Positions 19,017 through 57,878 of a DNA stretch of 64,000 nt are shown here, in pieces. This DNA comes from a virus (Duplodnaviria > Caudoviricetes). The stretch lies in the IMG/VR virus record IMGVR_UViG_3300021255_000054. The stretch is one strand, 5' to 3'. The notes below the pieces were generated by a model. The model had not been told where the DNA came from, did no database searches, and saw only the letters and a list, made by a program, of their open reading frames with translations. The position numbers and the translations under genes are program-made. Numbering within the stretch: position 1 is the stretch's first letter; each line of letters starts with the position of its first letter.

Positions 19017-19028
19017 GGAGGATTGGAA

Positions 19029-20603
19029 ATGACTCTATCCGATATGTCTGCTTATAAGCAAATTATCGGTTGCTTAATATACAAACCTCTTTTATTTTTG
19101 GAATATCCTGAACTACAAGTTACAGATTTTGATTATAGACCTGCAAAGGTTATATTTAATACAATTTATAAATTATATCTTGCTGGCGCGAAAGAATTAT
19201 CTCCGGTTGAAATAGACCAAGAAATTGAACAAAATGGCGGTTTAGCCTTACAGGAGTATCGCAATGGTGGTTTGGATTTTCTTAAAACTTCATATGAGAT
19301 TGCTCAATTAAGCAACTTTGATATGTATTATAATAGAATAAAGAAATGTGCATTATTAAGAAAATTACAGCAAGCAAAATATGATATTAGTGAATTTTAT
19401 TTAGAAGATACCGATCCAGCAAATGAAGCAAAGTTAAAACAGAAATTAGAAAATGCAACATTAGAAGATATCTTAAATGCGGTTGAAAAGAATTATTCTG
19501 AGATTAGAAATGCTTTTCTTAATGGCGGCAGAACGAAAGGTGATCCAGCAGAAGGAATTTTTCAGTTAATTGATGACTTATAGAAGTCGCCAAGTATTGG
19601 GCCAAGCTTAGAAGGAAAAATATTTAGTACAGTATGCAGAGGGGCAAGAGATGGATGTTTCTTCTTAAAAAGTGCTAGTACTTCATGTGGTAAAACACGT
19701 ACCAGTGTATTTGATGCTTGCCATTTAGCTTATCCAATTAGATGGTCCGCGACGAAGCACGCATTTATTGAAGAACTTCAACCTGATGAAGAGCCACGTA
19801 TTCCGCGTAAAGTATTATTTATTGTAACTGAAATGGATAAAGAAGAACTTCAAACTATGATGCTTGCATATTTGTCTGGAGTAGACGAAGACCATATCTT
19901 AACTGGATTATATGAAAGGGATGAATTAAAAAGAGTAAAAACCGCCGCAAAAATTATTGAAAAATATAGTGGTTATTTTATTATTGAAGAGATTAGTGAG
20001 CCGAATTTACAGAATGTTGAAGCAACTATACGTAAGTATGCTACAGTAGATAATGTAAAATATATCTTTTTTGATTATATTCATACAACTGCGAGTCTAG
20101 TGGCACAATTCAGTAAGAACGGACTTAGAGAAGATGTTGTACTTATGCTTCTTGCGAATCAGTTAAAAGAGCTTGCAAAAACATATAATGTATTTATCTT
20201 CTCTGCCACACAAGTAAATTCATTTGCAATGGGTGATGAAGAAATGGGATTTAAAGATGAAAAAAGTATTCGTGGTTCAAAAGCTGTTGCAGATAAATGT
20301 GATATGGGTTATGTAATGACTCGCATATCTGAAAAAGGATGGAATAGTGTTTTACCAGTGTTAAAGATTGCAGCAAGAGAAGGAATTATTGACCCATCTT
20401 TCTTAGAAAATAAACCAACTCATATTTTAGATATTTATAAAATGCGGCGTGGCCGCTATAAAATGATTCGTATTTGGACTCGTATTCATTTAGGAACAGG
20501 AGAGCGAGAAGATTTATTTATTACAAGTGCAGATAATCAACCATTAAATGAGCCATTAGATTTATTTTCAAGTGCCTCAGAAAGAGTGATTGAAATAGAA
20601 TGA
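19029..20603 (+). CDS. dnaB: DnaB-like replicative helicase, one in-frame TAG (19581-19583)
   Basis: Track ORFs 19023 and 19833 share a frame. The linker after TAG carries Walker A SASTSCGKT, then IVTEM, FFDYIH, SATQVN, IRGSKAVADK. Confidence 0.88.
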
Positions 20604-21721: not shown

Positions 21722-21909
21722 TGGAATTTGATTTAAAATTAGAAGAAAATAAAACATGCTGGTTATATAAATATAATTGTCCATGCAGAACTGGAGGATG
21801 TTATGGCTTACCAGATGATGGATGTCCAGTATATAGATGGTTTAAAGAAGTAATTAATTATCAAGAACGGGGAGCAATGGTGTGTAATGAAGTATCGATT
21901 AAGGTGTAA
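21721..21909 (+). CDS. small Cys-rich protein
   Basis: 62-aa ORF coupled to primase. Confidence 0.5.
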   Translation: MEFDLKLEENKTCWLYKYNCPCRTGGCYGLPDDGCPVYRWFKEVINYQERGAMVCNEVSIKV

Positions 21910-23659
21910 TTATACGACAGACGCAGAAGAAGCATTAATAGATATTCTAAAAGATCGTGGAGTTAAAAATGTTCATGAGTTTATGAATCCATCAAAGTCA
22001 TGTGAATTAAATCCATATGACTTAGATAATATTGATAAAGCCGCGGAACAATACCTATATCATCTGCGCAAAGATAGTAATATTTTATTTATTGTAGATT
22101 GCGATTGTGATGGATTTACAAGTTCTAGTATTCTATGGCTATATACAAAGCATATATTTCCAGAAGCTAAGCTTGAATTTACTGTCCATACTCATAAACA
22201 GCACGGCTTAGATGATAAGATAGATTGGATTGAAGATGAATCTAAATGGGATTTAGTTATGGTACCTGATGCCGGAAGTTATGATGTAAATGAACATTTT
22301 AAACTTGGACAGCTAGGTATGGATTGTATTGTACTAGATCATCATATGTAGGAATATGATAAAAATGGAAATCCAATTACTTCAACAGCACCTAATACAA
22401 TCGTTGTAAATAATCAGTTATCACCTAATTATGATAATAAATCATTATGTGGCGCCGGTATTGTTTATAAATTTTGTGAAGTATTAGATGATAAATTAGG
22501 TATTAGTCAAGCACATAATTATATTGACTTAGCTGCTTTAGGTGAAATCGCTGATGTTATGGATAGAACTGATTCTGAAACTAATTATATTATGATGGAA
22601 GGACTAAAAAATATCCATAATGAGGGCTTTAAGACTTTGCTCGCAGCGCAAGCTTTTTCCTTAAAAGAAAAGTGCGTACCTCCATATACAGGGCTAACTC
22701 CTATTGATATCGCATTCTATATCGCGCCTTTAATTAATGCAATTACACGTGTAGGGTCTATAGCAGAAAAAGAAGCAATGTTTTATTGTTTTATTGAACC
22801 TATGAAGCCTCTACAAAGCACCAAGCGTGGCGCAAAAGCCGGAGAAACTGAGTATGCCGCCGAACAAACTGCGCGCGTAGGAAAGAATGCTAAGTCCCGT
22901 CAAGATAGATTAAAGGAACAAGCTTTAGGAATTATTGATTTCAAAATTCAAAAAGATGGTTTAGCGGATAATAACATTATTCTAGTTGAATTAGATGCTA
23001 TGGATAATGTACCACAAGAATTAACTGGTTTAGTTGCGATGAATATTGTATCTAAATATCATAAGCCAGTTATGATTGGTCGCCGAAATGATAATGATGA
23101 GATTCAGGGAAGCATTCGTTCTGATGGGAATTTCGCCGGGCTACCAAGCTTTAAGAAATTTTTAGAGGACAGCGGTTTAACTACTTATACTGCTGGGCAC
23201 GATAATGCCGCTGGTTGGGGATTAAGTGGTAATAAAGTAGAATCTTTAATTAAGTACGCTAATACTCATCTTAAAGCAGAAGATTTTGAAAATTGTTATC
23301 TTGTAGATTATATCTTAAAAGGTGAAGGACATAATGATGCCCTATTGCGCGAACTAGCTTCGCATCCAGAATATTTCGGGAATCATATTGACGAAATTAA
23401 ATTAGTAATTGAAGATATTCCACTAATGAATATTATGCCTATGGGCGCAAATAAAGATAGTATGAAAATTTCATATAATGGAATTGATTATGTGCGCTTT
23501 AAAGATGAAGATTTCGTAGAAGAAGTAATGCAGAATCGTACTAAAAAACTTACTGTTTATGGGCGTGTAAATTTAAATACATTTAATGGTAAAACTAGTA
23601 TTCAAGTATTTATTGATGATTATGAATTAAAAGCAGATGAGCATAAATATGACTTTTAA
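21887..23659 (+). CDS. recJ: RecJ-like DHH ssDNA exonuclease, one in-frame TAG (22349-22351)
   Basis: DCDCDG, HG, DHH then M(TAG)EY..NNQLS..LCGAG..LGEIADVMD; DHHA1 GSIRS, AGHDNAAG. Confidence 0.88.
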
Positions 23660-23669
23660 AAAAAATTGA

Positions 23670-23698
23670 TTGACAAAAAATGAAATTTGTAGTATAAT
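23670..23698 (+). promoter_or_regulatory. sigmaA-type promoter for dnaE
   Basis: TTGACA-N17-TATAAT. Confidence 0.8.
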
Positions 23699-23726
23699 TG
23701 ATATAGATAAAGAAGGAGCAGTGAAT

Positions 23727-23777
23727 ATGATAAAAAATGTGCGTAATGAAGCGCGAAAGGAGGTGGTGCCTGTATGA
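23727..23777 (+). CDS. putative 16-aa leader ORF coupled to dnaE start
   Basis: AAGGAG SD; MIKNVRNEARKEVVPV with TGA overlapping dnaE ATG (ATGA). Confidence 0.35.
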   Translation: MIKNVRNEARKEVVPV

Positions 23778-26700
23778 AGATGACTTACCCTGGAAGTCTT
23801 CATAATTAGGAGCCATACACATTATAGTAATGAAACCCTTCGTGACTGTATCAATCGAGTAGAAGATTTGATTGATCTGGCAATTAACTTAGGTCATGAA
23901 TGTGTTGCAATCACTGACCATGAAACGATATCAAGTTATATTAAGGCAGAAAAGTATTATAAGAAGATTAAAGAAACGCATCCAGACTTTAAATTAATTC
24001 GTGGTAATGAGATTTATCTTACTCGTAATGGTTTAACGGCGAAGAATTTTGATAGGACAAAAGATAGGTATTTTCACTTTATTCTTCTTGCAAAAGACAA
24101 GATTGGATATAAGCAAATTTGTCAATTATCAACAAGAGCATGGCACCGTTCATATATGAGTCGGCGCCAGCGTAGACGTCCAACTTATTATCAAGATTTA
24201 AAAGATATTGTAAAGCCAGATAAAGGGCACTTGATTGCGTCAAGTGCCTGTTTGGGTTCTCAGTTGGATAGATTCTTACTTCAATATATGGATACTGGTG
24301 ATGAAGAATTTTATGAAACGGCAAAACGTTGGTGTTTATATATTGAAGATATTTTTGGTAAAGGAAATTTCTATTTGGAGATGCAACCTTCAAATGGAAA
24401 AGAACAAATCTTTGTTAATAAACAATTATTAAGAATTAGTAAAGAACTTGGTATTAAATATATTATAACAACCGATAGTCATTATGGGCGGCCGGAAGAA
24501 GCTAAAATTCATGAAGCATTTCTTAATTCACAAGATGGTGATAGAGAAGTTAAATCATTCTATGCGACAACGTATATGATGAGTGATGAAGAGATTCATA
24601 GTTTCTTTCCATATCTATCTGAAGAAGAAATTGAAGCTGCATATAGCGCGATTAGAGAGATTAAAGATAAGTGTGAAGATTTTAGTGTATTGAAACCATT
24701 GAAGATTCCAAGTTTACCTTGGCGTGATTTTCCAATTTGTCAGCTCGATGAATTTAAATATTATTATAAACAAATGCCAGCTATCAAAGAATTTGCACAT
24801 TCATCATATTATGCTGATAATCAATTAGTATGGGCACTACTTGATGGCATTAAGCGGCATCCAGATCTTCAAAATGAAAAAGCGTATAAAGCATTAAATG
24901 AATGTCTTGAAATGACTTGGGAATCTTCACAGGTTAATAAAGCGCAGTGGTCAGCATACTTCTTAAATCTACAAAAGATTATAGATGAATGTTGGAATGC
25001 GGGAACAATTGTTTTACCAGCGCGCGGATCAGGTATGGGATTCGTGCTTCTATATGCGCTTGATATTATTCAAATTAATTGTCTACGTGAAAAGACGAAG
25101 ACGTATCCTTGGAGGTTTCTTAATCCTGCTCGTGTATCAGTACTTGATATTGATGTAGATATTGAAGGCGTCCGTAGAGCACAAGTATTAGAGCATTTAA
25201 GAAGAACTTATGGTGAAAATCGAGTATCTAATGTTGCAACATTCAAAACAGAAAAGTCAAAGTCGGCAATTCAAACTGCATGTAGAGGATTGGGTATAGA
25301 TGTAGATGAAGCATCTTATATTTCAAATTTAATTCAAGCAGAACGTGGCCAAGTATATACATTAAAGCAAACTTATTATGGCGATGAAGATAATGGTATC
25401 GCACCGAATCAAGCATTTATTACAGAAGTAAATAAGTATCCAGGCTTATGGGAAGTCGCTCAGAGAATTGAAGGACTTATCTGTGGGCAAGGTATTCACG
25501 CTGGCGGCGTAGTATTTACAGATGAAGATTTTACGGAATCAAGTGCTTTAATGCGTGCGCCCGATGGCACGATTATTACACAATTTGAATTACATGACCT
25601 TGAAGATGTTTCAATGATTAAGATGGACTTATTGAGCGTTGAAGCTGCGGATAAGATTCATACTTGCCTTGATTTACTAGTTGAACAAGGCTATATTAAA
25701 GAGGGAAAAAATCTTAGAGAAACATATGAAGATGCACTTGGTGTATATAAAATAAATCGTGATGATAAGAAAATGTGGGATATGGTACAAAATCATGAAA
25801 TTGTGTCATTATTCTAGATGGAACAACAGAGCGGTATTCGTGGTATCTCATTAACACATCCACGAAGTGTCGATGAATTAGCAGTTCTTAATTCGGTTAT
25901 TCGTCTAATGGCAACTGAAAAAGGTGCGGAAAGTCCATTGGATAAGTATGCGCGCTTTAGGGAACGGCCGCAGGATTGGGATAGAGAAATGATTCAGATG
26001 GGTTTGACTGATGAAGAACGTCAGATTATGCATCGTGAATTAGATATTTCTGATGGTATGTCCATTACGCAAGAGCAATTTATGCAACTTGTACAATTAC
26101 CAGAATGCGGCGGCTGGGATCTACAGTTTGCAGATAAGTTAAGAAAGTCAATAGCAAAGAAGAATCCTAAAGAGTATGATGCCTTAACAAAACAATTCTT
26201 TGATAATGTAAAAGAAAAAGGATTAAGTGAAAAGTTCTGTAATTATGTATGGAATATTGAGATTGCGTTAAGCCGTGGATATGGATTTAACGCAGCACAT
26301 ACGTATTCATATTCCATTGTAGCATTACAAGAAATGAACCTTGCACGATTCTTCCCAATTATCTTCTGGAATACAGCAAACCTTATTGTAGATAGTGGCG
26401 GTATTCAAACAGTTGAATACGACGAAGATGGAATAGCTTCGATAGTAGTTGAAGCCGAACCTGATGAGGATGCAGAAGAAGAAGAGGAAGAACAAGAAGA
26501 ATGGGAAGAAGAAAATGAAATAACTGAAGACGAGAAGGAAGAGAAGAAAAAAGAAAAAACCAAAAATATTGATTATGGTAAGATTGCATCTGCGATTGGA
26601 AGATTCAGTACTTATGGAATTACAGTATCGCCGCCGAATGTAAATGATTCATCTTATACTTTTACTCCGGTAGTAGATAAGAATGAAATTTTATATGGAT

Positions 26701-27755
26701 TACGTGGTATTACAAGATTATCTACTTCAATTATTAAAGACATTATTGAGAAGCGTCCATTCACTTCTATTGATGACTTTTTAAATCGTGTTAAATTAAA
26801 TAAGGTTCAAATGACAAATCTAATTAAGTGTGGCGCCTTTGATGAATTAGTAGGTTTGCCGCGCGAAAAAATAATGTCAGATTATATTGGACGTATCGCA
26901 GATAAGAAGCAGAGATTAACATTACAGAATATGCAAATGCTTATCAATTATGATTTAATTCCAGATGAAATGACATATTATGGTAAGTTATTTATGTTTA
27001 ATAAGTTCTTAAAGACTTGTAAACAAGATGATGATTATATGTTAAATGATGCAGCAATTAACTTTATTGCTGAACATTTTAGTGCAGATTATATTAGTAA
27101 TGGTATGTCTATTAAACAAAATGTTTGGGATAATCTATATAAAAAAGGTATGGAACCAATGCGAGTATATTTAAAAGCGCATCAAGTAGAAATGTTAAAA
27201 GTATTAAATGATACTTTATATAATGAGATGGCAAATAAATATGCGTCTGGCAGTGTATCGCACTGGGAAATGGAATCAGTATCATTTTATAGTCATCCGC
27301 ATGAACTTGCCGAAGCTCAATATTTATATGATGATTTCTTTACATTACCAGAAGCGCCAGAAATTGATTATACTTTTACTGGTAGAGATGGTAATGAGAT
27401 AAGAGTATATAAGTTAAGAAAAATTATTGGAACTGTAATTGATAAAAATAAGATGAAAAATACAGTAACATTATTAACTCCGACAGGGGTAGTAAATGTT
27501 AAAGTATATAAAAATCAATTTGCAATGTTCGATAAACGATTATCTCAAAAAGGTGCAGATGGCCGCAAGCATGTGTTAGAAAATAGTTGGTTTTCACGTG
27601 GAACATTGTTAATGATTCAGGGAATTAGGCGTGAAAATGACTTCATTCCCAAGAAGCGGAAAGATAGTTTTTATCCTGTAATTTCTAAGATTACGGCAAT
27701 GCATGAAGATGGTACATTAGAATTTCAGACAGAAAGATTGGAGGTGGTAGAATGA
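23774..27755 (+). CDS. dnaE: DNA polymerase III alpha (DnaE-type); frame break at 23807-23813 and in-frame TAG at 25815-25817
   Basis: PHP LHN/HTHYS, AITDH, GNEIY, TTDSHY; ARGSG, LDIDVD, GIHAGGV, KMDLL, SLF(TAG)MEQ, GYGFNAAH; OB C-terminus. Confidence 0.9.
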
Positions 27756-28846: not shown

Positions 28847-29039
28847 TATTAAAACAAAATATAGTGAGTTAAGCTCACAATTAAAACAAGCTTTAGCCAC
28901 TATGCAACGTAGTGATAGAGTATTTGTTATTAGAGATGAAATTAAGAGCTTACAAAATATGTGTCCGCATAGCAATGGTAATTATGATTTTTCTGATGCA
29001 GATTCTTGTCCATATTGCGGAAAAAAATTTAGGAAGTGA
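28833..29039 (+). CDS. small Zn-binding protein
   Basis: CPH ... CPYCGK. Confidence 0.6.
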   Translation: MEIDNIKTKYSELSSQLKQALATMQRSDRVFVIRDEIKSLQNMCPHSNGNYDFSDADSCPYCGKKFRK

Positions 29040-29044
29040 CATTA

Positions 29045-31324
29045 ATGGAATTGCTAATTAGAAAACGTACTGGCGAATTAGTACCATTTGATAAAGAAAA
29101 AATTCAAACAGCTATATGTAAAGCTTGGCATGATGTTTATCCTACTGAAACAGGAATGCCATCTTATTGTATAGAAATTGCTAATCTGATTGAATCAGTC
29201 GCAATTGAATTATCTGAACCTATGGATGTTGAAGATATTCAAGAGTTAGTTGAGGATTATTTAACAGATTATGATTTAAAGGTCGGAAAAGCATATATCA
29301 AGTATCGTTATAAGCACGGCGTGATGCGCGCAAATTCAACTGAATTTATTCGTGCTATTAGCGAAAAGCTTCGTGCTTCTAATGTACAAAATCAAAATGC
29401 AAATATAGATGAACATTCATTTGGCGGCAGAGTAGGAGAAGCTTCAGATGAAATGATGAAGCAATATGCATTAGATTATTGTATGTCTGATATGTCTAAG
29501 CAGAATCATTTAAATAATGAAATCTATATTCACGATTTAAGTGCATATGCAGTAGGAATGCATAATTGTTTAAGTATTCCATTTGATGATTTATTAGCTA
29601 AAGGATTTAATACAAGACAAACAGATGTACGTCCTGCTAATTCAATTAATACCGCGTTCCAGCTTGTAGCAGTTATATTTTAGCTTCAATCTTTAATGCA
29701 GTTTGGCGGCGTTAGTGCCACTCACTTAGATTGGACTATGGTGCCTTATGTGAGGAAGAGTTTTTACAAACATTATAAAGATGGATTGAAATACTTAGAA
29801 AATATCAATGAATTAAAAATAGTTGATGAAAATAACAATATAATTGATCTTAATACTATTGATTGGAACAGTAATATTATTGGCATAGAACATGCTAGAT
29901 TTGGCTCAGAAAAGGCATACAATTATGCAATGGAAATGACGGAACGCGAACTTCAGCAAGCGGTCGAGGGAATGTACCACAACCTTAATACACTTCAATC
30001 AAGAAGCGGGAATCAACTACCTTTCACGTCCATTAACTATGGCACCTGTACATTACCGGAAGGTCGTATGGTAATTAAAGCATTGTTAGAAGGTTCTATA
30101 AAGGGCGTAGGGAAGTATCATAAAACTCCTATATTCCCATGTGGTATTTTCCAACTTGGAAAGGGTATTAACCGCGCGCCCGGAGATCCAAACTATGACT
30201 TATATCAGCTTGCACTTGAATCTACTGCTAAACGTATTTATCCCAATTATGCTAATATTGATTGGTCTGGAAATGCAGGATACGATCCAAACGATCCAAC
30301 AACATATTTCAGCACAATGGGATGCCGTACAGCTAACGGCGCAGACATAAATGCAGAACCCGGTGTCAATCCACAACGTAAAGATGGCCGTGGCAATATT
30401 TGTCCAGTTACTATTATTATGCCAACGCTTGCAGCAGAAGTTAAAGAAGCCTATATTAATAAATATGGACTTGAAACCGCGCAAGAAGATGAAGCACATG
30501 TTGTAGATGCTTTTATTGGTTTATTAGATCAAAAAATTCATGAAGCAAAAGATATGCTAATTGAACGTTTCAATTGGATTTGCTCTCAATCTCCCGCATC
30601 CGCGAAGTTTATGTATGAAAATAATACAATGCTCGGCTATCATCCAGAAGAAGGAATCCGCTCAGCATTGAAGCACGGCACTATTGTTATTGGACAACTA
30701 GGACTTGCAGAAACACTTCAAATCTTAATTGGCTGTGACCATACAACTGAAAAGGGAATGGAGCTAGCTAAGAGAATTGAGCAGCTATTTAAAGATAGAT
30801 GTGCAGAGTTTAAAAAAGAATATAAGCTTAATTTCGGCGTCTATTATACTCCTGCTGAAAACCTTTGCTATACAGCAATGAAGAAGTTTAAAGCTAAGTA
30901 CGGTGAGATTGAAAATGTATCTGACCATGAATATTTTACAAATAGTATTCATGTACCAGTATGGCATGACATTTCAGTATTTGATAAAATTGATATTGAA
31001 AGTCAGTTAACTGGATATTCTAGCGCCGGATGTATTACATATGTAGAAGTTCCTTCTGGTGTAAAGAATAATATTCCCGCACTTGAAACCATTGTTAATT
31101 ATGCGATGGATCATGACATACCGTATTTCGCTTTGAACATACCGCTAGATATGTGTAATGATTGCGGCTATCAAGATGAAATTGGTGAAACCTGTCCTGA
31201 ATGTGGTAGTAAAAACATTTCAAGACTTAGACGCGTAACTGGATACCTTACTGGTTCCTATAAAGATGCTTTCAACTGGGGCAAGCAGAAAGAAGTTGAA
31301 GCAAGGGTTAAGCATATACACTAA
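29045..31324 (+). CDS. nrdD: anaerobic (class III) ribonucleoside-triphosphate reductase, one in-frame TAG (29681-29683)
   Basis: ATP cone, IYIHDL, MHNC, AVIF(TAG)LQSLMQFGG, MGCR, TPAE, CxxC..CxxC, RRVTGYL glycyl loop. Confidence 0.93.
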
Positions 31325-32594: not shown

Positions 32595-33629
32595 ATGATT
32601 TATCTTATATTGATATGTTTAGTTATAATCGGATTTCTGGGATTTAAACTTTATTAGAAGAAGGTTGTTGATACTCAATTAATGAATGAGTATTAGGCAT
32701 AGATACAAAAGGTTAAAGAACAATTAGATTCTGATCAAAAAGCTTTAAATTAGTATAACAGTCAGCTGGTAGATGTTCGTATCAAAGTTAATACTGAGTA
32801 GCAAAAGCTAACTGATTTATATAATTAGTTAGATAGCGTTGAAACTAGCTTAAAAGATTCTCGTGATGAATATCATCATTTAATAAATAATAAGATGAAA
32901 GAAATAGACGAAACAATTAAGCAATAGCGGTAGACACGTCAGCAAGAATTAGATGCTGAATTTGATACTCGTAGATATGATCTTGAATTACAATTATCTT
33001 AGGCTTTACGTGAATATGATGAACAAGCAGAAGATGCAAAGAGTGTAATGGCAGATATAATTAAGCAATGTCAAGATAAGTGTAATGAGTATTAGAATAA
33101 AGTTATTGATGCAGAACAACGATTCGAAAGTATTGAAAGAGCTTTAGCTTAGTATGAAAAAGATAAACAAGCTAAATTATTCTATACAATACAATTACCT
33201 GAAGAGTTCAGAGATGATATTGAGTTTTTATTAACTACTGTCGCCGCGAAAGTACAGCATCCAGATATTATTAGTAAGTTAGTTTGGGCTGAATATGTAA
33301 AGCCTAACTTAGATAATACATTTAAGAGAATTGAAATTAAGGCTGAACCAGGAATTTACAAATTGACTAATATAGATACTGGTAAGTGCTATATTGGAAA
33401 AAGTACTAATGTAAAAACTCGTATAGCCGATCATTTCAAATCTTCTATAGGAATTAAAAGTATTGCGGATCAAGCCGTACATCATGCAATATTAAAAGAA
33501 GGATTCTGGAACTGGTCAATTGAAGTAATCACATATTGTGATAAAGATAAATTATCTGAATTAGAAAAGTATTATATTGAATTCTTTAAATCATAGGAAT
33601 TTGGTTATAATAAAAATAGTGGAGGCTAA
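32595..33629 (+). CDS. TM anchor + coiled coil + GIY-YIG nuclease, 344 aa, 12 in-frame TAG
   Basis: MIYLILICLVIIGFLGFKLY; Q/E/K-rich coil; GIYKLTN..CYIGKS..R..H..ELEKYYI..GYN. Confidence 0.8.
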
Positions 33630-36145: not shown

Positions 36146-36190
36146 AAAAGAGGCCCGTACTCAGAAATGAGTACGGGCCTATTTTTTATT
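36144..36190. terminator. bidirectional intrinsic terminator between convergent arms
   Basis: AAAAAAG-AGGCCCGTACTCA-GAAA-TGAGTACGGGCCT-ATTTTTT. Confidence 0.88.
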
Positions 36191-39100
36191 GTGGTTCTTC
36201 TCCTGCAGAAAAATAATATATATCGCATAAGGTTCCACCATGTACTTTTAAAGCCTTCTCTGAAATTTTAATTTCTTTAATAAAAGCATAAACAGAATCA
36301 TTACCAGATTTCTCCTGGGGTTTTATCCATACTTTCCTACTAGTTGTGGAAGCATTTGGGCGCATATTATATGCAGAAGCAATATTTTTATAATGAAAAG
36401 TATATTCAATTCGATTACTTTTATTTGCATAGCCCATTACTGATCGAGTTGCCTGATCTTTAACTACAATATATCCTGTATTATTTCCACTAGATCCTTC
36501 AATATACATTTTAAACCTTACAGCAGAAAAAGATTGCTAAGTAAGGTTACTACTAGCGACATTAAATTCTGCTTTAATAGTTATATCATAAATATAAGGA
36601 GCATCTTCACTTCCTGTTCCATCTGTGATATATAATGAAGTATCTCCATCATAATTTATTACGCACTAATGTGCTGCTGTAGAAGAATCAATGTCAGTAC
36701 CCTAATTTACGCTTACATACATTTCGCTGACATAAAAATCTGCACTTACATTCGGATTCGGCCGAATCCAAACCCAGTCTCTATCAGAAGGATAATTACT
36801 AGGTGTAGTAAGAGAATAAAAAATATCATCTCTTGCCCAGACTTCTTGATCGTTTATTTTAATACGGGAACCTTTAATATCAATTCCACTACTATCCATA
36901 TGAATATAATTAGTTGCACTATTATCAAGCTTAATATGGTCTTTAGTAATAGATAAATAAGAATCATCTAATGCACTATTAGCTCCTTTTAGTACATGTA
37001 ATCCATAATTAGCGCCTAATACTAAAGCAGTTGTTGAGGTTAATTCTACAGTATTTGTTGTATCTGAACCAGATGTAGTTATTTTACGTGTACCAGTACT
37101 TAAACCATCTATCGTAAAAGGTTCTGGACTATCACCGTCTTCTCCATCTTTTCCATCTTTACTAATATAACTTATATCATATACAGTTGAAGTAGCACTT
37201 CCTATAGTACTTGTTATCTTAGTATGTAAATATTTTCCTTGCTATCCAGATAAGTTCGGTGCTGTAGTAGACCAACTTAAATCTTTATCAGTAGAACTAG
37301 TATAAGCCGTTGAAGTAGTATTAATTAAATAATATTTAGTTACAGCATAATCATTTTGAGCCAACGTAAAACTAGTAGCCGTAATTTTTCCTGTAATTTC
37401 TAAGCCATTTTTTATAGTATACTTTAAATAAGGATTGGATGATGCTCCTAATCGTAAAATTGCATCAGTGGACTAAGCAGAAGTTTTAGTAGTGTCTAAA
37501 AGAAAATTAGTAGTATCTACTGTTAATTTTTTATTTGATGCAATCACAATTCCATCATTATTTAAAATTATAGCCTCTTGATATTGATTAGAATTATTCA
37601 TTGCTCCAATAGAAATTGATCCTCGTGCCTAAATAGAAATATTTGCTGTAGATTCAATTGTTAATTTATTATTTTCTATTGTAATACCAGTAGTCTTAAT
37701 TTTAGTAAAACTGGTCTCACCAGACATATATTTCCCTAATGAAGTATTTACTTCCGCAGCAGCACCATTAGCATCATATAATTCATTTGTAGTTTTACTG
37801 CCAATATATAAATTATTCCCAGATGTAATTTTAAGATTTCCAGCAGCACTGATTTCTCCACTAGAATTAATTGTTAGAATAGCGTTACCTGAATTGTTAT
37901 AAAAACCAAAATTACTCGCTTCAACTTTCATATACCCATTATTAGATTTAGCAATAAAACTACTTGCGTATATACTACCTGATACAAATAAATTATTATT
38001 AGTAAATACCAATCCAACCCAAGGTTTAGCACTACTTCCTAATACTGGATCACTATTAGCAATTAAACCTGTAACAGTTGAGTCTGCAGTAATATACTAT
38101 AAATTATGACCTACCGCGAATCTTGTACCTAATCCAGTATTTGTCTATAACTTAAAATTATTCATATTAACATATAAATTAGCTAAAGAACCTAATTCAA
38201 TTCCTTCGCCACTAATACGTGTATATGAACCTCTTGAAGCACGTAAGTTGTTATTATTATTGCTAGTAGTAGGCCAAGTAACATTTACTGAACCGCTGCC
38301 TATTGTTATTCCATTTTCATTCATTAGAATAGCATTAATATTATTTCCAGAACCAGTAGCAAATCCAATACTATCTTTAGTAAATTTTGCACCAATAAGG
38401 CCACCATTTACCCCTGTAACATTCTAATTACCAATTGCGGCAGAACCGGAAGCAATTACTACTTTATCTTTATCCAATTCAATAGCATTACCGGCATTAG
38501 TAGAAGTATTCATATATCCTAAAATTAAATGTTGATCATTTAACTCTACTGAAGCACCAGCAGCATTAGCTTTTGTTAATTCATTCGTATCCGCGTTATA
38601 AGAAAAGCCACCGCTAAATATTCTTACTCCCTTTCCGCTACCAATCCATACACCAGTATCTGGACTAATTTCAATTGCAGAAGTACTGTTACTATTTATA
38701 CGAGAAGTAACCATCTAAATCTTATTAGCTCCGCGCATTAATATATCAGCAGATCCCATCTCAATTTTTTTTGGATTAATTAATACTTTAGAAAAATTAG
38801 TATCTCCAGTAGAACTACCTACTGATGTATAAGTAGTAGCTATTAAATTAATACTACTAGGAGTTTCATTAGCAGCTGCCGCACCCAAATTTAAAGTAGG
38901 GCCGCCTATATTAACTGATTGTTCACCTGTAATATTGACGTCATGTCCCACTAACTTTAATAGACCATTGGAACGTAATAATAATTCCTTCTAAGCTTCA
39001 ATCGTAATATTACCATCTTCAGCATCTATATCTAAATGTGCGCCCTTTATCTATGCTAATGTTCCATCACTAGTCTAAACCCAGCCACCAAAACCACTAG

Positions 39101-42100
39101 TCTCATTAGAATTAGCAGTAGCAATATATCGCGCCACTTCTTGGCCATCGCTATTTAACTCAATCCAAATATCACCTATTTTAAAAGTTGTAGGTCTAGT
39201 TTGAGATCTATATATAGAACCAGTTAATTCACTTTGTATATCTGAAGCAAAATTAGCTAATATTCCAGCGTTCGCAGTAGTTAATGAATGTATATTATTT
39301 AAACTACTCTAAGAATCTGCTAATATCTATCCCGCCTCAGTGAATAAACTTGTTAATTTATTTTGTACTACTTCACTACTATCAAAATGCGCATCTAAAT
39401 AAGCATTTAGTATTGAAGTATTACTCGCTAATGTATCAGAAAAACCTTTATCTGATAAACCAACTGAACCAGACAATGCCGCTCCTAATCCACCTTGCGC
39501 GCGCTTCATTTGTTCAGTTTGTGCTACAATTGTAGAAAATAAATCTTCAAATTTAGTTTTATAATTCTTAACTTCAATAGTATCATTCTATGGAGCATCT
39601 AAATCTAATTCCATATGAGATATATAGCCGAATGTATTTTCAAACTTCAATTCAGTATCATTTATCATTAATAATTGCGCCAATCTGCTATATAATGTAT
39701 GGGATACTGCTGGATTTAATAAATTTGTTGTAATATCATAAGAAACTTTAGGATAAGCATTTTCATGTGATACTTCAAGTGCATCTAGATAAATTGTTGT
39801 ATTAGCATTTGAAATTATATAATTTACTTTTACTTTTCGTGCAATACCACCACCACAATATCTTAACATGGATTCTGGTTTTAAAGTAATAAAGTATTCC
39901 ATATAATTAGTATCGCCACGTTTAGTATCACGCGTATTTACATAATAATCTTCAAACATACTTAATAACTAATTATTATACTATACAGTAATATCATCAC
40001 TCTAAGTCTTTAAACTAGTAGAAGAAAATCTAATACGCGGCATTACTATCTTATAATCTGCGGTTTCTAGCCACTTTACATTTTGAGCATTCTTAACAGT
40101 TAATGCATTACCAGTAATAGGTAATGTAAGCTCTCCTATTTTAGCATGACCATAATATTTACTATTATCAGTATTTTTCATATTTTTAATCTAATCATCA
40201 GTTAATGATTTTGCGCCAACTAATACTAATGCAGGAATTATTTTATTGGAACTATTTTTTACAAATACGGGAATAGCTTGTGAACCTACTGCAAAATACT
40301 ATTGATATTTTAATCCATTTGGATTAACCGTATCATTCTTATAATTAGTATTAAAATATATACTATACTTAGTAATATCATCCATTAAAATACCGCCAGG
40401 AATTTCTATCATAGGATAATATTCTTTAATTTTCTTTACACCTTTTTCATAATATAACTTCTATTCACCCATAAATAAATGAGAGTCACTTTCGTCACTA
40501 GAAGTGTCAACATCCCAAATAAATGTAGCTTCTTGTTTTAAATCTGAAGTTAAATCATTATTTTCAGCAGTAACAGTAGTAGGAATAGGATTTATATTAT
40601 ACTCTTTTGTATCTCCATAATTTGTATAATCTTCTGGTTGCCAGTAACCTTCACGCAAAGCAGGCCCCATCATGCGTTCAAAAGCTTTAATGCATTTATT
40701 CTTCTCTGTCATTAAATCTTCAATACTTTCATCAACAGTTTTTAGCTCTGCATAAAGTCCCGTCGCAGCAGTGTCGCCTTCCTATTTCTTACCTAGTTTA
40801 TTTTCAAGTTCCAATGCTTCCTTAGTATCAGCATTTAATTTATCTTGCCAATCTGCAATTACTGAGTCATAATAAGAAGAAGGATTATAATTATATGTTA
40901 AATATACTCTATTTACCTTCTCACTATCATAAGGCAAATTAGTTAATCTAGTAATATCATTGGTCTTTTTATCATATTCAGGAACAAATCCAGTAATTTC
41001 ATTAGCAGTAGTAAATGTCCAAGTCTAATTTGCAGAATTATAAGTCCCTGTTTTATAAACATGAACTGTATCTAATATAATTCCTAAATCATTCCTTAAA
41101 GAAATATAACCCGTGGTATTATCTCCACTATTAAAAATCTATTCCTAAGCAGGTTTTTTATTATCACGAGTCATTAAAGTATTTTTAGAATTACCATATT
41201 TTTCTAATAAAGCAGTCCTTAATGCTCCTGTCGCATCTACTTGTTCCTAGTCTAATTTTTTAGAATTTTCTGCAATAGCTAACTACGCTTTTACTTCAGT
41301 AATTTCATTACTCAAAGTCGCGCTCTTCTATTGTAAAGGAATTAGTTTTTCATTAAATCCCTTCATTTTCTTTTCATACACAGGAATTTCTGCGTACTAC
41401 TCATCAGATATTGTACCTATACTATGTAAATAATCAAAATTTAATATATAATCTTCTTTAGTTTTATTTGCTTCACTATCCATTATAGTATGATAGCCCT
41501 ATAATGTAGTATCATCATCTACATTTAGTACGTATAACTTAGTAGTTAAATCAGTGCTATCCATTCTGCGGCTAATCTCTGTCGCGCTATATGGATAAGT
41601 TAAAGACATATAACCTTCTTCTTCTTTAAAATAATTATTATAAAATACTACAGTACGAGATATAATCTAATTATTCTAATCATGTCCATACTCATATGTG
41701 CAAAATACACCAAAAGTCTCCGCGATAGTCTGTGTAATATTATATATATTACTATTCTTCGCATCAACCATTCTTTGCTTAATAGCAAAACTTTTTGTTT
41801 TTGTGGGCACTAAATCATCATTCCAAGCAGTAGTATATGTTTCTTCATATAACTACATAGATGAACGACCATTCGCGCCCTACTCAAATGAATTCCAATT
41901 CATTTGTAATCTATAATACCAAGTATTTGGATTTAAATTATTTTTATTATCTTCGTAGCTTTCTAAGCCCGCTTTGCGGCACCAATAAGCTATATCGGCG
42001 CGAGGTTCATTACTAACTTCTGAGGGCTTAGCTGGATCAGGATCTTTACCAGTTTCACACCATTTTTTATATCTTTCATAAAATTCCTCAAAAGATAATA

Positions 42101-42563
42101 CTAATTTATAACCTATCTTACCTAATTCATGAAATGCCAATCCTTCGCACTTTACTTCGCAAGTAAGCATATCATTACTATGAGTTTCTTGGATATCTAA
42201 AATAACAAATTCAAATACCTATTTAACAGTTTCATCTTTATTAAAAATAACTTTAATCTTGCGCAAACCTGTCATTAAATTATTATTTAACGTATTGCGC
42301 CAATTAGGATTTTCTATTAATACTCCATCTCTACGATAATACATTGGAATACTAAAGCTAAATTCCTAAGTACCATCAACATCCAAAATCATTTTAGGAT
42401 GTTCTATTCTTCCTTTTTGCTCCACATCGGACCACTTTAGGACAGTAATAAAACTGTCCTAAAGAGTCCATAGGGAGACTTCATAACTACGAATTTCTTT
42501 CTTTTCAATACCATATTGTCTATGCTATTCTATAATTAAGTTTTTTTGTTTATCCGTAATCAT
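36186..42563 (-). CDS. large tail tip/host-specificity protein (~2,125 aa, many TAG)
   Basis: AAGGAGGT SD at start; nine track fragments share one frame with 42563; lies downstream of Dit; beta-rich C-half and KDGKDGEDG collagen-like spot. Internal codons not all checked. Confidence 0.75.
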
Positions 42564-56300: not shown

Positions 56301-57878
56301 ATGCCCGCGAATTGCTGCAACAGCCTATTCATGTACTCTTATTGCATCTTCGTTGCTTCCTGCATTTCCAGCAGCTGCAGCTGCCTCTTGCTGATGAGCT
56401 TCTGCTACATCATGAAGTGCTTTCGCCGCGCCAGATGCTGCTTCCTAAGTTTTCTAATAATTTTCCGCGCGTTTATTATTAACTTCATCTGAATTAACTG
56501 TATTATCTGCTTCATTTAGTTCCTTTTTTTTCTCGTTTAAATCATCAAGGGTCTATTTAGTAGTATCAGCTTCAGATTGTACTCTATCACGATACTATTC
56601 CATTACTTTATCAGTATTATCTAATAAAGCAGATAAATCAAATCCCTTAACTATGGCATTCGTAATTGCGCCAATTTCTTGTGAATTTAAGTTTAAACCA
56701 GAATTTTTTAATATATTAGAAACCTAAGATTTAAAAGCACTAGTATTAATATTTGTAGTTAAGTCAGCATTATCAAAAATATGCTAAATTCCAGCAACCA
56801 TATTAGTCTATAACTAATTAATGGTACTTTCATCCATTAGTCCAGTATCAACAAATAATGTCTTAAATCTTGCTTTAATTGCTCCAAAATATTTGGCATA
56901 ATTCTAACTAATATCAATATCTTTAAATAAATCTTCAACATTATATTGCTTTAATACATTTTGAATGGCTTCTTTGCTAGCATTCGCAGAAGGCGCAGTT
57001 TTATATGCATTTAATATTTCTTGCTATAATTTTTGATATTCTGGTATTCTCTGCCGCATTTGCTCGCAGCCTTTAATAATAGCATCGACTTCTGAGTTAA
57101 TAAAATCTTGTACATTGCTGCCAGCTTTAATATTATTTGTTTTCTGTCCAGAATAATTTTCAAAACCACTATAAAAATTCTTTAATAACTCCTAATAATC
57201 TGTAGTATCAGTTTTAAAAGATTTACCAGTGGTTGCAGCATCAAAAGCTTTCTAAATGTCATCACGTATAGTAGAAACTTTATTAGTACTTAAAGTATTT
57301 AATTGTCCCTATAAAGACTGTAATTTTTCTTCAGATTTTTCGATCAACTTGTCTACTTTTGACATTTCTTTTTCAAAGGTAGAAGATAATCCTGAAAAAG
57401 TTAAATTTTCTATTGATAAACCTAATTTTTCCGCTGCATGTTTTACTTTATCAGCATTCTAAACAGTAGAATCATCAAAAAAGTTGCCAATAGTTCCTTT
57501 ACGTAGATTTGTTAAATCTTGTTGTAACTATTTAATTTTATCTCTAAGTTCATCTATCTGTTTCTTTTCGGTATCTGTTAAAATAAAGTCATCTAAATTA
57601 AAAGTGGAAAATTTCTCAGTTGCAGTTTTTAAATTAGTTAATAAATTTTCATAATCCTTTAAATACTTTTTAGAGTCAGAAGAGGTTTTAAATGCGCTCT
57701 CCATTTTTCCTTTTAATTCATCAGCTCTATTTTTTAATTTTTCTAAAAAATCATTAGTAGTCTTAAAAGCAGTAGAATCCATTTGAACTGATTTTAATAA
57801 TGTTTCTCTCAAAGACTAAATTTGTTTCTATGCTTCTTGCAATCCTAATGAAACCTATAATTCTAATGAATTTGCCAT
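44307..57878 (-). CDS. tape measure protein (~4,523 aa, very many TAG)
   Basis: Eleven track fragments share the frame. TP901-type TMP core (TLKMARIAGLD..DYMTTAIRGF..TRESATNIGTALK), long helical body, GELGPEL motif, C-terminal cell-wall-binding repeats. Internal codons not all checked. Confidence 0.85.
44885..45130 (-). repeat. cell-wall/choline-binding-type repeats within the TMP C-terminus
   Basis: GWWYQYNGGSWATGWKNIDGKDYYFNDKGYMQTGWVQGSDGKWYYLGADGAMVTG. Confidence 0.8.

What the first reader, a model, noticed from the sequence alone, without database searches (positions are those of the whole stretch)
23727..23870. dnaE begins with a 7-nt out-of-frame insert (TAGGAGC) splitting the PHP motif: candidate programmed ribosomal bypass or frameshift keyed to an amber codon
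Seen: a strong SD (GGAGGTG) and ATG 23774 give MKMTYPGSLHN, then TAG GAG C, then CAT ACA CAT TAT AGT (HTHYS) in the +1 frame that continues as DnaE. Removing exactly 7 nt gives LHNHTHYS (or LHSHTHYS), the canonical LHxHTxYS metal-binding motif. Reading straight on hits TAA at 23828. The +1 frame has a TGA at 23781 and no ATG before the motif. The insert starts with TAG and contains an SD-like AGGAG, and a 16-aa leader ORF is coupled to the start. Known: T4 gene 60 bypassing has UAG right after the take-off codon, and prfB +1 shifting uses a stop codon plus an internal SD. Inference: the polymerase may be made by a short hop or shift whose efficiency senses how TAG is being decoded, linking replication to the code switch. 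A CAT(23801) to CAT(23814) matched hop is an alternative.
Basis: partly seen in the sequence, partly recalled or inferred. Interest (0 to 1): 0.85.

Follow-up and report, generated by a model that had tools for sequence, protein, structure and literature searches.

The report
Ribosome-hop gap in phage dnaE
The only DNA polymerase gene of this 190-kb amber-recoded phage is broken after its 11th codon by seven real bases that begin with a stop codon; they are the scar of a selfish nuclease-gene cassette, and 35 related junctions with 4-12-base gaps indicate that ribosomes hop over it, a very rare way of reading a gene that has not yet been tested at the bench.

Summary
ATG 23774 gives MKMTYPGSLHN, then TAG. 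Seven bases (23807-23813) separate this from HTHYS... and the 1,314-codon DnaE frame.

The 16-codon "leader ORF" is the ghost of a GIY-YIG homing-endonuclease gene with about 667 nt deleted. Relatives carry that gene intact, directly upstream of an equally interrupted dnaE.

Across 35 distinct junctions I found 22 gap variants with shifts of 4 to 12 nt. Each has a take-off codon, then TAG or TGA (never TAA), then a landing codon read by the same tRNA or differing at one base. Skipping the gap always restores the canonical YPGSLHNH(T/D)xxSN. A cassette-specific RNA hairpin pairs the start region with the take-off site and gap.

The best explanation is a short ribosomal stop-hop, AAT to AGC, a counterpart of the phage T4 gene 60/MobA cassette. 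It is not homologous to that cassette.

Gaps led by TGA show the device is not keyed to amber. In this TAG-to-Gln phage, suppression must still compete with the hop.

This scan has already noted the same device in at least seven other genomes. I found no published description. No protein-level evidence exists.

The parts
21887..23659 (+). Upstream neighbour: a RecJ-like exonuclease gene with one in-frame TAG. Relatives have the same recJ, promoter, endonuclease gene, dnaE order.
   Evidence: Pfam DHH, RecJ_OB and DHHA1. blastn matches L014 992-1317.
23670..23698 (+). Sigma-70-type promoter, TTGACA-17-TATAAT. In relatives it drives the homing-endonuclease gene and dnaE.
   Evidence: 12 of 12 consensus match. 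The homologous promoter lies upstream of the endonuclease start in L005, L007, L014, L126 and L127.
23727..23777 (+). Ghost of a GIY-YIG homing-endonuclease gene: its first 2 codons fused to its last 14 codons (KNVRNEARKEVVPV), then a stop. About 667 nt of the interior are deleted. Its TGA overlaps the dnaE ATG.
   Evidence: Window 23401-23732 aligns to L014 992-1317 and window 23727-23900 aligns to L014 1985-2163. The full genes in relatives end in ...NVRNEARKEVVP(V/I). They hit Pfam GIY-YIG and PHROG homing-endonuclease families. The endonuclease profile finds no match here.
23755..23768 (+). Extended Shine-Dalgarno sequence GAAAGGAGGTGGTG for dnaE. Its 3' part forms the outer 5' arm of the hairpin.
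   Evidence: Sequence. A GAAAGGAGGTG(A/G)TG-type element is conserved in interrupted loci, while uninterrupted loci have different 5' regions.
23774..23806 (+). dnaE ORF1, 11 codons: MKMTYPGSLHN. The take-off codon is AAT, 23804-23806.
   Evidence: Translation. YPGSLHN is kept at the amino-acid level through synonymous changes across gap types.
23807..23813 (+). The 7-nt insert. TAGG (23807-23810) is the untranslated gap, led by the A-site stop TAG. AGC (23811-23813) is the landing codon, which pairs with tRNA-Asn through a G.U pair at the middle position.
   Evidence: Variant table: close relatives have AAT-TAGG-AAC, and AGC also serves as landing codon in the 4-, 8- and 10-nt variants.
23763..23816 (+). 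Predicted RNA hairpin. 23769-23781, which holds the start codon, pairs with 23796-23804 and with gap bases 23807-23810. 23763-23767 pairs with 23812-23816, the landing and resume codons.
   Evidence: Fold of the window: -30.7 kcal/mol, z -3.2, and none of 200 shuffles folds as well. 20 interrupted loci have mean z -2.46 against -0.50 for 52 uninterrupted loci, Mann-Whitney p 5e-7. Gap types with a TTG leucine codon carry a matching change in the 5' arm.
23814..27755 (+). dnaE ORF2: 1,313 sense codons from the resume codon CAT 23814, plus the stop. It holds the PHP, Pol III alpha, finger and HhH domains. The one in-frame TAG, at 25815-25817, aligns to a conserved Gln.
   Evidence: Translation and Pfam. 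Relatives have Gln at the TAG position in 36 matches. It is the only family A, B or C polymerase match in the complete genome.

Best explanation
The 7 nt at 23807-23813 are a short untranslated coding gap at the 3' edge of a mobile homing-endonuclease cassette.

Shown:
- In relatives, a free-standing GIY-YIG endonuclease gene sits between the promoter and dnaE, and the first PHP-motif codons of dnaE carry a 4-12-nt insert.
- In this phage the endonuclease gene has been deleted down to a 16-codon ghost. The insert and its RNA hairpin remain.

Inferred:
- The insert disrupts the endonuclease's own target site, as in phage T4 MobA/gene 60.
- DnaE is made by a ribosomal stop-hop. The ribosome starts at ATG 23774 and reaches Asn codon AAT 23804 in the P site, with the slowly read stop TAG in the A site.
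- Peptidyl-tRNA-Asn then unpairs, the mRNA slides 7 nt, and the tRNA re-pairs with AGC 23811 (A-U, G.U, C-G).
- Decoding resumes at CAT 23814 and gives ...YPGSLHN-HTHYSNE....
- The hairpin most likely rectifies forward sliding, couples initiation to the upstream ORF, or both.
For: 1. Comparative series. 35 distinct junction sequences fall into 22 take-off/gap/landing variants with shifts of 4, 5, 6, 7, 8, 9, 10, 11 and 12 nt. In every one the last canonical codon of the upstream frame is followed at once by TAG or TGA, never TAA. The triplet just before the resume codon is read by the same tRNA in 16 variants (AAY to AAY, CAT to CAT, TCT to TCT). In the other 6 it differs at one base (AGC for Asn, TAT or CAA for His).
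2. Frame is irrelevant. L386, L419 and L434 share one genetic background but carry 9-, 9- and 8-nt gaps. The L434 frame stays open for 1,313 codons.
3. The hop product fits a profile of 45 uninterrupted N-termini without any indel in all 35 junctions. It scores on average 7.6 bits above the minimal shift or readthrough product and 21 bits above the downstream piece alone.
4. dnaE is under selection. The frames are stop-free over all codons read (up to 1,290) in 17 of 19 interrupted loci, and the two exceptions carry internal insertions. The complete 189.6-kb genome has no other family A, B or C polymerase.
5. Cassette linkage. The endonuclease profile hits upstream of most interrupted loci, against 4 of 62 uninterrupted ones. 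The HNH-linked L066 has its own TCT-TGAGG-TCT gap.
6. Mobility. This window's dnaE body is 86-91% identical to uninterrupted L001, L024, L022 and L038, but its 92-nt 5' cassette is 84-89% identical to endonuclease-bearing loci. The gap label needs at least 12 changes on the DnaE tree (quick tree).
7. The gap outlasts loss of the endonuclease gene: this window, L218, L227, L260, L263, L266, L330 and L434.
8. The hairpin is specific to the cassette.
9. Literature. Stop-hops between matched codons flanking a stop are shown in synthetic E. coli constructs, and the gene 60 cassette has the same hallmarks and the same endonuclease link.
Against: - There is no protein, ribosome-profiling or reporter evidence for any member. 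All support is comparative.
- The landing codon in this window is AGC, not AAC, so re-pairing relies on a middle-position G.U pair.
- The phage reads TAG as Gln. It has a tRNA-CUA, one ORF holds 129 TAG codons, and the dnaE body itself needs TAG 25815 read as Gln. The suppressor should therefore compete with the hop at TAG 23807 and send ribosomes to TAA 23828.
- For 3n+1 gaps such as this one, a +1 shift also restores the frame.
- The nascent chain is only 11 residues long, so a gene 60-type nascent-peptide signal is unlikely, and short peptidyl-tRNAs are prone to drop-off.
- Raw reads could not be examined.
- The many Asn-site variants may descend from a single insertion, so the number of independent origins is about five, not 22.
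Confidence: 0.72

Rival explanations
1. A programmed +1 ribosomal frameshift at AAT-TAG-G, of the prfB or Ty type. The ribosome skips T 23807 and reads AGG AGC CAT, which gives LHN-RS-HTHYS.
For: Seven nt is 3n+1, so a +1 shift restores the frame. A stop codon in the A site is the classic +1 stimulator. Variants with 4-, 7- and 10-nt gaps could all be read this way.
Against: - Relatives with 5-, 8- and 11-nt gaps (3n+2) and 6-, 9- and 12-nt gaps (in frame) have the same architecture, and the gap length changes within one background.
- tRNA-Asn re-pairs poorly with ATT.
- No Shine-Dalgarno-like element lies about 3 nt upstream of the shift codon, as it does in prfB.
- The product would place two residues between the metal-binding histidines. 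It scores 7.6 bits below the hop product.
- A +1 shift has no need for the landing triplet, yet that triplet is conserved as AAY or AGC.
Confidence: 0.1
2. In this genome dnaE is dead or N-terminally truncated. Either no full-length DnaE is made, or translation starts downstream (for example at TTG 23868) without the first PHP histidines.
For: The endonuclease gene has decayed here. The landing codon is only near-cognate. TTG 23868 opens the longest conventional ORF.
Against: - This is the only polymerase gene in a complete genome with terminal repeats.
- The frame is open for 1,314 codons, and its single TAG sits at a conserved Gln.
- No Shine-Dalgarno sequence precedes TTG 23868. The aligned codon is TTA, CTA or GCT in 25 of 33 interrupted relatives.
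- ORF1 keeps YPGSLHN through synonymous changes.
- AGC landing codons also occur next to intact endonuclease genes (L132-L134).
Confidence: 0.07
3. The hop exists mainly as a sensor of amber decoding. Its purpose would be to tie DnaE output to the phage's switch from TAG=stop to TAG=Gln.
For: - The phage is TAG-recoded and has its own tRNA-CUA.
- Some cassette endonuclease genes contain sense TAGs, six in L040 and four in L228. They can therefore be made only once TAG is readable, whereas the hop needs TAG left unread.
Against: - Nine of the 22 variants use TGA.
- L330 is probably TAG-recoded (35% more open frame with TAG as sense) yet has a TGA-led gap.
- The gap's presence tracks the endonuclease cassette, not the genetic code.
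- Requiring TAG to be unread at 23807 and read at 25815 looks more like a cost than a design.
Confidence: 0.12
4. The 7 nt are removed from the mRNA (a micro-intron or RNA editing), or they are a sequencing or assembly error.
For: The genome has unusual RNA features according to other first-reader notes. The gap lies inside a stable hairpin. Raw reads were not available.
Against: - No known mechanism excises 4-12 nt of variable sequence.
- Splicing would not need a stop codon at the gap start or matched flanking codons.
- There is no Rfam match.
- Independent assemblies from many metagenomes carry the same or analogous inserts.
Confidence: 0.03

Closest known systems
Phage T4 gene 60 translational bypass within the MobA homing-endonuclease element (Huang 1988 and Bonocora 2011 as cited in PMC5009743; Manning & Atkins, bioRxiv 10.1101/2022.08.31.505936)
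   Same: - An untranslated gap lies inside an essential replication-related gene, next to a free-standing homing-endonuclease gene.
- The take-off codon is followed at once by UAG (UGA in some variants).
- The landing codon is read by the same tRNA.
- The gap persists after the endonuclease gene is lost.
- A purine-rich, Shine-Dalgarno-like element lies in many gaps.
- An mRNA structure lies 5' of the site.
- The insert sits in a metal-binding motif of the target protein.
   Different: - The two are not homologous. The gene here is dnaE, not the topoisomerase gene; the endonuclease is GIY-YIG or a different HNH; and there is no sequence similarity to the 50-nt cassette.
- The gap is 1-9 nt (shift 4-12 nt) rather than 47 nt (shift 50 nt).
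- The site lies 11-17 codons from the start, so the nascent peptide is too short for a gene 60-type tunnel signal.
- No take-off stem-loop with a tetraloop is present.
- The host gene is not split in two.
- The hairpin pairs the start codon with the take-off region.
- Nothing has been tested experimentally.
Synthetic 'stop-hops' in E. coli (Weiss et al. 1987 and later work, as reviewed in PMC5009743 and cited in PMC6815119)
   Same: Peptidyl-tRNA hops from a codon to a matching codon a few bases downstream, over a stop codon in the A site. The hop is independent of frame. Variant L129 (AAC TGA AAC) has exactly the nine-bases-for-one-amino-acid form.
   Different: Those cases are engineered or incidental low-level events. 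The review states that no natural occurrence of stop-hopping is known. Here the hop would be obligatory for an essential gene, and it comes with a dedicated hairpin and a very strong Shine-Dalgarno sequence.
Mitochondrial 'byp' elements of Magnusiomyces capitatus (Lang 2014 and Nosek 2015, as cited in PMC5009743)
   Same: Many short mobile inserts lie inside coding sequence and are tolerated because ribosomes bypass them. Take-off and landing codons match, and the A-site codon is slow to decode.
   Different: Those inserts are 27-55 nt, lie in yeast mitochondria, and have no link to a homing endonuclease. The mitochondrial translation system is also different.
prfB (RF2) +1 programmed frameshift
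   Same: A stop codon in the A site is used as the pause, and a Shine-Dalgarno-like sequence lies nearby.
   Different: prfB has an overlapping re-pairing codon (CUU to UUU), a Shine-Dalgarno element 3 nt upstream, a fixed +1 geometry and autoregulation by RF2. None of these fits the series of gap lengths found here.

Membership tests
Programmed translational bypassing (hopping) | Two ORFs encode one protein and are separated by bases that are not decoded. | tested here: met
   ORF1 plus ORF2 minus 7 nt equals the uninterrupted N-terminus of 62 relatives. The joined product fits the profile in 35 of 35 junctions.
Programmed translational bypassing (hopping) | The landing codon, directly 5' of the resume codon, is readable by the take-off tRNA. 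| tested here: met
   It is cognate in 16 of 22 variants and differs at one base in 6. In this window AAT goes to AGC through a G.U pair, which makes it near-cognate.
Programmed translational bypassing (hopping) | A slow-to-decode codon (stop or rare sense codon) occupies the A site at take-off. | tested here: met
   TAG or TGA follows immediately in all 22 variants, never TAA. The caveat is that TAG is a sense codon late in this phage's cycle.
Programmed translational bypassing (hopping) | Independence from reading frame. | tested here: met
   Shifts of 4 to 12 nt cover all three frame classes, and 8- and 9-nt gaps occur in one background.
Programmed translational bypassing (hopping) | Protein product with the predicted junction. 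| not testable with these tools
   No proteomic or reporter data exist.
T4 gene 60 / MobA bypass cassette (homologous family) | Homology to the 50-nt cassette, its N-terminal extension and take-off stem-loop, with insertion in the topoisomerase II large-subunit gene. | tested here: not met
   The host gene here is dnaE (Pfam). The gap is 4 nt, and the endonuclease is GIY-YIG. This is an analogue, not a member.
Free-standing GIY-YIG homing-endonuclease cassette | GIY-YIG catalytic domain plus DNA-binding repeats, encoded next to the target gene. | tested here: not met
   The feature is not met in this window, which keeps only a 16-codon ghost. It is met in relatives: PF01541 with E 1e-6 to 1e-11, PHROG homing-endonuclease families, and two helix-turn-helix repeats.
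Free-standing GIY-YIG homing-endonuclease cassette | Patchy, mosaic distribution that indicates homing. | tested here: met
   The 5' cassette and the gene body have different nearest relatives. At least 12 label changes are needed on the DnaE tree.
Free-standing GIY-YIG homing-endonuclease cassette | The enzyme cleaves the cassette-free allele, and the insert protects the cassette-bearing allele. | not testable with these tools
   This is inferred from the link between gap and endonuclease gene and by analogy with MobA.
prfB-type +1 programmed frameshift | Overlapping slippery P-site codon, a Shine-Dalgarno element about 3 nt upstream, and a conserved +1 geometry. | tested here: not met
   AAT to ATT re-pairs poorly, no upstream Shine-Dalgarno element lies at that spacing, and relatives have 3n, 3n+1 and 3n+2 gaps.
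DnaE-type (family C) DNA polymerase with PHP domain | PHP, Pol III alpha, finger and HhH domains. | tested here: met
   PF02811, PF07733, PF17657 and PF14579 all score above their cut-offs. The nearest cultured-phage homologues are at most 40% identical.

The most novel reading that the evidence does not exclude
In this amber-recoded phage the hop and the code switch together act as a band-pass gate on replication. DnaE needs TAG 23807 left unread, so that the ribosome hops. It also needs TAG 25815 read as Gln. Polymerase output would then peak at intermediate suppressor-tRNA activity and shut off when TAG decoding becomes efficient late in infection. A selfish-element scar would thereby have been co-opted as a timer. 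More broadly, obligatory short stop-hops with near-cognate landing (Asn tRNA on AGC) would be a natural and widespread decoding mode in phages.
Probability: 0.15. Interest if true: 0.9.

Novelty: new variant of a known kind. Interest (0 to 1): 0.8.

Why it matters
Natural translational bypassing is known with certainty in bacteria only from the T4 gene 60 family. A major review states that short stop-hops, although shown in synthetic constructs, have no known natural occurrence (PMC5009743).

Here an essential, single-copy polymerase gene appears to depend on such a hop. Nature also supplies a ready-made mutational series: gaps of 1-9 nt, two stop codons, cognate and near-cognate landing codons, and loci with and without the endonuclease gene. 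That series makes several questions directly testable:
- What is the minimal requirement for take-off and landing?
- How much P-site mispairing is tolerated?
- Does mRNA refolding behind the ribosome drive forward sliding?

It is also a second, independent case of a homing endonuclease protecting its own target site with an insert that ribosomes ignore. That suggests a general strategy for invading conserved coding motifs.

Practically, gene callers will truncate or split these polymerases. In stop-codon-recoded phages, the gap also raises the question of how a hop over TAG coexists with efficient amber suppression.

Tried and rejected
- Rfam scan of 23500-24000 at E up to 1: no match.
- tRNA scan of the window: none found. 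The suppressor lies elsewhere in the genome.
- CAT 23801 to CAT 23814 hop: rejected. It would delete Asn-His, which every relative keeps, and it has no stop in the A site.
- Start at TTG 23868: rejected. The aligned codon is not a start codon in 25 of 33 interrupted relatives.
- Quadruplet reading of TAGG by the tRNA-CUA: considered and rejected. The anticodon loop is a normal 7 nt, and other gap lengths do not fit.
- Match between the gap's stop codon and the phage's recoded codon: the test is noisy, and L330 is a counter-example.
- 15-mer scans of viral contigs: mostly chance matches, so I filtered them by the downstream SNxxLRD motif.
- Covariation counting with the count of structure pairs: not run. 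The hairpin arms are nearly invariant apart from the TTG-leucine types, so per-sequence folding against uninterrupted controls was used instead.
- Careful maximum-likelihood tree: did not finish, so the quick tree is reported.
- A general take-off stem-loop inside the gap: seen only in the 10-nt type, not across the series.
- Literature searches for a published description of short natural hops in dnaE or near GIY-YIG genes: none found in the held library.
Full report
**What is in the window.**
- A 12-of-12 sigma-70 promoter lies at 23670-23698.
- A 16-codon ORF (23727-23777) overlaps ATG 23774 through ATGA.
- The Shine-Dalgarno core AGGAGGTG lies at 23758-23765.
- ATG 23774 opens MKMTYPGSLHN, which ends at TAG 23807. 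The zero frame closes for good at TAA 23828.
- The DnaE frame reads HTHYSNETLRD... from CAT 23814 to 27755. It has no conventional start codon before TTG 23868.
- Pfam finds PHP, Pol III alpha, finger and HhH domains.

The phage reads TAG as a sense codon. One ORF holds 129 TAG codons. The dnaE body has a TAG at 25815 where relatives have Gln. The complete 189.6-kb genome, which has terminal repeats, encodes a tRNA with anticodon CUA. dnaE is the only family A, B or C polymerase match in that genome.

**Relatives.**
- A protein-guided scan of viral contigs returned 71 dnaE loci. Most start M-x-x-YPGSLHN-HTxYS without interruption.
- L005, L007, L014 and L046 have the window's arrangement, with AAT-TAGG-AAC-CAY.
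- L040 has an 8-nt insert, L031 and L070 a 7-nt insert one codon further on, L042, L047, L057 and L060 a 12-nt in-frame insert one codon earlier, and L066 an 8-nt TGA-led insert after a Ser codon.
- A metagenome scan seeded with the endonuclease family, and two pattern scans filtered by the downstream motif, added more loci.

In total there are 35 distinct junction sequences and 22 take-off/gap/landing variants, with shifts of 4, 5, 6, 7, 8, 9, 10, 11 and 12 nt.
- In all of them the last canonical codon of the upstream frame is followed directly by TAG or TGA, never TAA.
- The triplet before the resume codon is read by the same tRNA in 16 variants. In 6 it differs at one base: AGC for Asn in the 4-, 7-, 8- and 10-nt gaps, and TAT or CAA for His.
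- L386, L419 and L434 share a background but carry 9-, 9- and 8-nt gaps. The L434 frame then stays open for 1,313 codons.
- Skipping the gap gives an alignment without indels to a profile of 45 uninterrupted N-termini in all 35 cases. It scores 7.6 bits above the smallest frameshift or readthrough product and 21 bits above the downstream piece alone.

**The "leader ORF" is an endonuclease ghost.**
- In every interrupted relative first examined, the sequence upstream of dnaE is the 3' end of a 234-260-codon gene that is stop-start coupled to dnaE.
- These genes carry a GIY-YIG domain and two helix-turn-helix repeats, match PHROG homing-endonuclease families, and form one family at 33-69% identity. 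L066 has an HNH gene instead.
- The window aligns to L014 on both sides of an internal deletion of about 667 nt. Codons 1-2 are joined to the last 14 codons.
- A profile of the family finds nothing else upstream here. Elsewhere in the genome it matches only two GIY-YIG genes, and only over the N-terminal part of the profile, not the second DNA-binding repeat.
- Other lineages show every stage of decay: a full gene; half a gene (L386); a C-terminal remnant (L282 and this window); or nothing within 1.6 kb (L218, L227/L312, L260, L263, L330, L434) or within the 1.1 kb held (L266). The gap is retained in all of them.
- Only 4 of 62 uninterrupted loci have any GIY-YIG match upstream. One of these (L139) has a full gene of this family, and its target motif is altered by substitution.

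**Mobility.** The window's dnaE body is 86-91% identical over its first 900 nt to the uninterrupted L001, L024, L022 and L038. Its 92-nt 5' cassette is 84-89% identical to endonuclease-bearing loci and about 42% identical to L001-type loci. On a DnaE tree (quick search; the careful one did not finish) the gap label needs 20 changes, at least 12 of them forced by well-supported branches. The window sits in a supported clade of eight in which the other seven lack a gap. This is the pattern expected of homing with short co-conversion tracts.

**RNA structure.**
- The window folds into a hairpin spanning 23763-23816, in a fold of -30.7 kcal/mol (z -3.2; none of 200 shuffles folds as well).
- AUGAAGAU, which holds the start codon, pairs with GUCUUCAU, the Ser-Leu-His codons next to the take-off codon.
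- CCUG in the spacer pairs with the gap UAGG, and GUGGU of the extended Shine-Dalgarno sequence pairs with GCCAU, the landing and resume codons.
- The A-to-G difference between AAC and AGC keeps this last helix (A-U becomes G.U).
- Twenty interrupted loci have mean z -2.46 against -0.50 for 52 uninterrupted loci (p 5e-7).
- The inner helix is predicted in almost all interrupted loci. Types with a TTG leucine codon carry AUGAAAACU in place of AUGAAGAC, which is a compensating change.
- The hairpin survives loss of the endonuclease gene.

Its role is inferred. It could sequester the start codon, so that initiation depends on the upstream ORF or on the very strong Shine-Dalgarno sequence. It could also refold behind the paused ribosome and favour forward sliding, as proposed for the 5' stem-loop of gene 60.

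**Mechanism and rivals.** The series fits a single mechanism, a stop-hop.
- Peptidyl-tRNA-Asn on AAT 23804 faces TAG in the A site. It unpairs, the mRNA slides 7 nt, the tRNA re-pairs on AGC 23811, and decoding resumes at CAT 23814.
- Hops of this kind between matched codons flanking a stop are established for synthetic E. coli constructs, and ribosomes stalled at stops are known to slide to codons that match the P-site tRNA.
- A +1 shift is arithmetically possible here but cannot explain the 3n+2 and 3n gaps, or why the landing triplet is conserved.
- A downstream start at TTG 23868 is not conserved.
- RNA excision has no known mechanism and would not need stops or matched codons.
- Assembly error is excluded by recurrence, although reads could not be checked.

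**The amber question.** The device is not amber-specific. Nine variants use TGA, and L330, which is probably TAG-recoded, has a TGA-led gap. In this phage, however, TAG is a Gln codon once the suppressor is active. Each of the replication genes DnaB, RecJ and DnaE carries a single TAG, and some cassette endonuclease genes contain sense TAGs. Full-length DnaE therefore needs TAG 23807 left unread and TAG 25815 read. Whether this is a cost or a timing gate is open.

**Comparison with what is known, and novelty.** The closest system is T4 gene 60 within the MobA element. It has the same logic and hallmarks and likewise persists after the endonuclease gene is lost. It is not homologous, and it differs in gap length, position and the signals involved. 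Reviews state that natural stop-hops are not known, and four literature searches found no description of this dnaE device. Earlier notes of this same scan describe the device in at least seven other genomes and reach the same reading. I treated those notes as leads only, and every claim above rests on tests made here. Specific to this window are the 7-nt form with an AGC landing codon, the 16-codon endonuclease ghost, and the amber-recoded setting.

Noticed in passing
window 25815-25817: The single in-frame TAG in the dnaE body lies in the LF-Q-MEQQSG motif, where relatives have Gln. DnaB (19023-20603) and RecJ (21887-23659) also carry one TAG each when read with TAG=Q. NrdD (29006-31324) shows two.
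   Followed up: partly
window 44307-57878 (-) and 36186-42563 (-): Giant ORFs of 4,523 and 2,125 codons appear only when TAG is read as sense. They hold 129 and 39 TAG codons, which is strong evidence of amber recoding in late genes.
   Followed up: no
genome G000:C1:165546-165630 (outside the window): The tRNA with anticodon CUA is 85 nt long, with a long variable arm and a 3-bp D stem as ARAGORN draws it. That is unusual for a Gln-inserting suppressor. It sits in a cluster of 25 tRNA genes that includes tRNA-Asn(GTT) and tRNA-His(GTG), the two take-off tRNAs of the dnaE gaps.
   Followed up: partly
window 33351-33629 (+); genome 173970-174449: Two further GIY-YIG catalytic domains are present, each with an in-frame TAG. 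The profile match does not reach the second DNA-binding repeat of the dnaE-linked family (profile positions 2-155 and 3-90 of about 240). They are probably other free-standing homing endonucleases.
   Followed up: partly
L091 (same contig as L055) and L099: GIY-YIG genes are inserted inside dnaE and split it into two ORFs, at the NPxRVSxLDIDVD and GxHAGGxV motifs. This is a different way of tolerating an endonuclease gene in the same polymerase. Related endonuclease genes also sit before nrdG (L079, L080, L090) and gyrA (L086).
   Followed up: no
L043, L047, L049-L051, L065: These dnaE loci are about 1.1 kb longer than the rest, and the frame breaks near codon 754 or 830. This suggests an intein, an intron or another endonuclease insertion in the polymerase body.
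   Followed up: no
L139 (metagenome contig OCVV010508949.1): A full endonuclease gene of the dnaE-linked family lies next to an uninterrupted dnaE whose motif reads YPLSLHNH with different codons. It may be immune to its own endonuclease through substitution rather than a gap.
   Followed up: no
L256 364-420: This 4-nt-gap variant has ACG where the others have the start codon of AUGAAGAC, and its downstream frame closes after 601 codons. It may be a decaying or split copy.
   Followed up: no
L132-L134, junction region: In the 10-nt type, the gap bases AGGGUG can pair with CACUCU just downstream, leaving the landing codon AGC as a triloop. This local stem-loop at the take-off site is not seen in the other types.
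   Followed up: no
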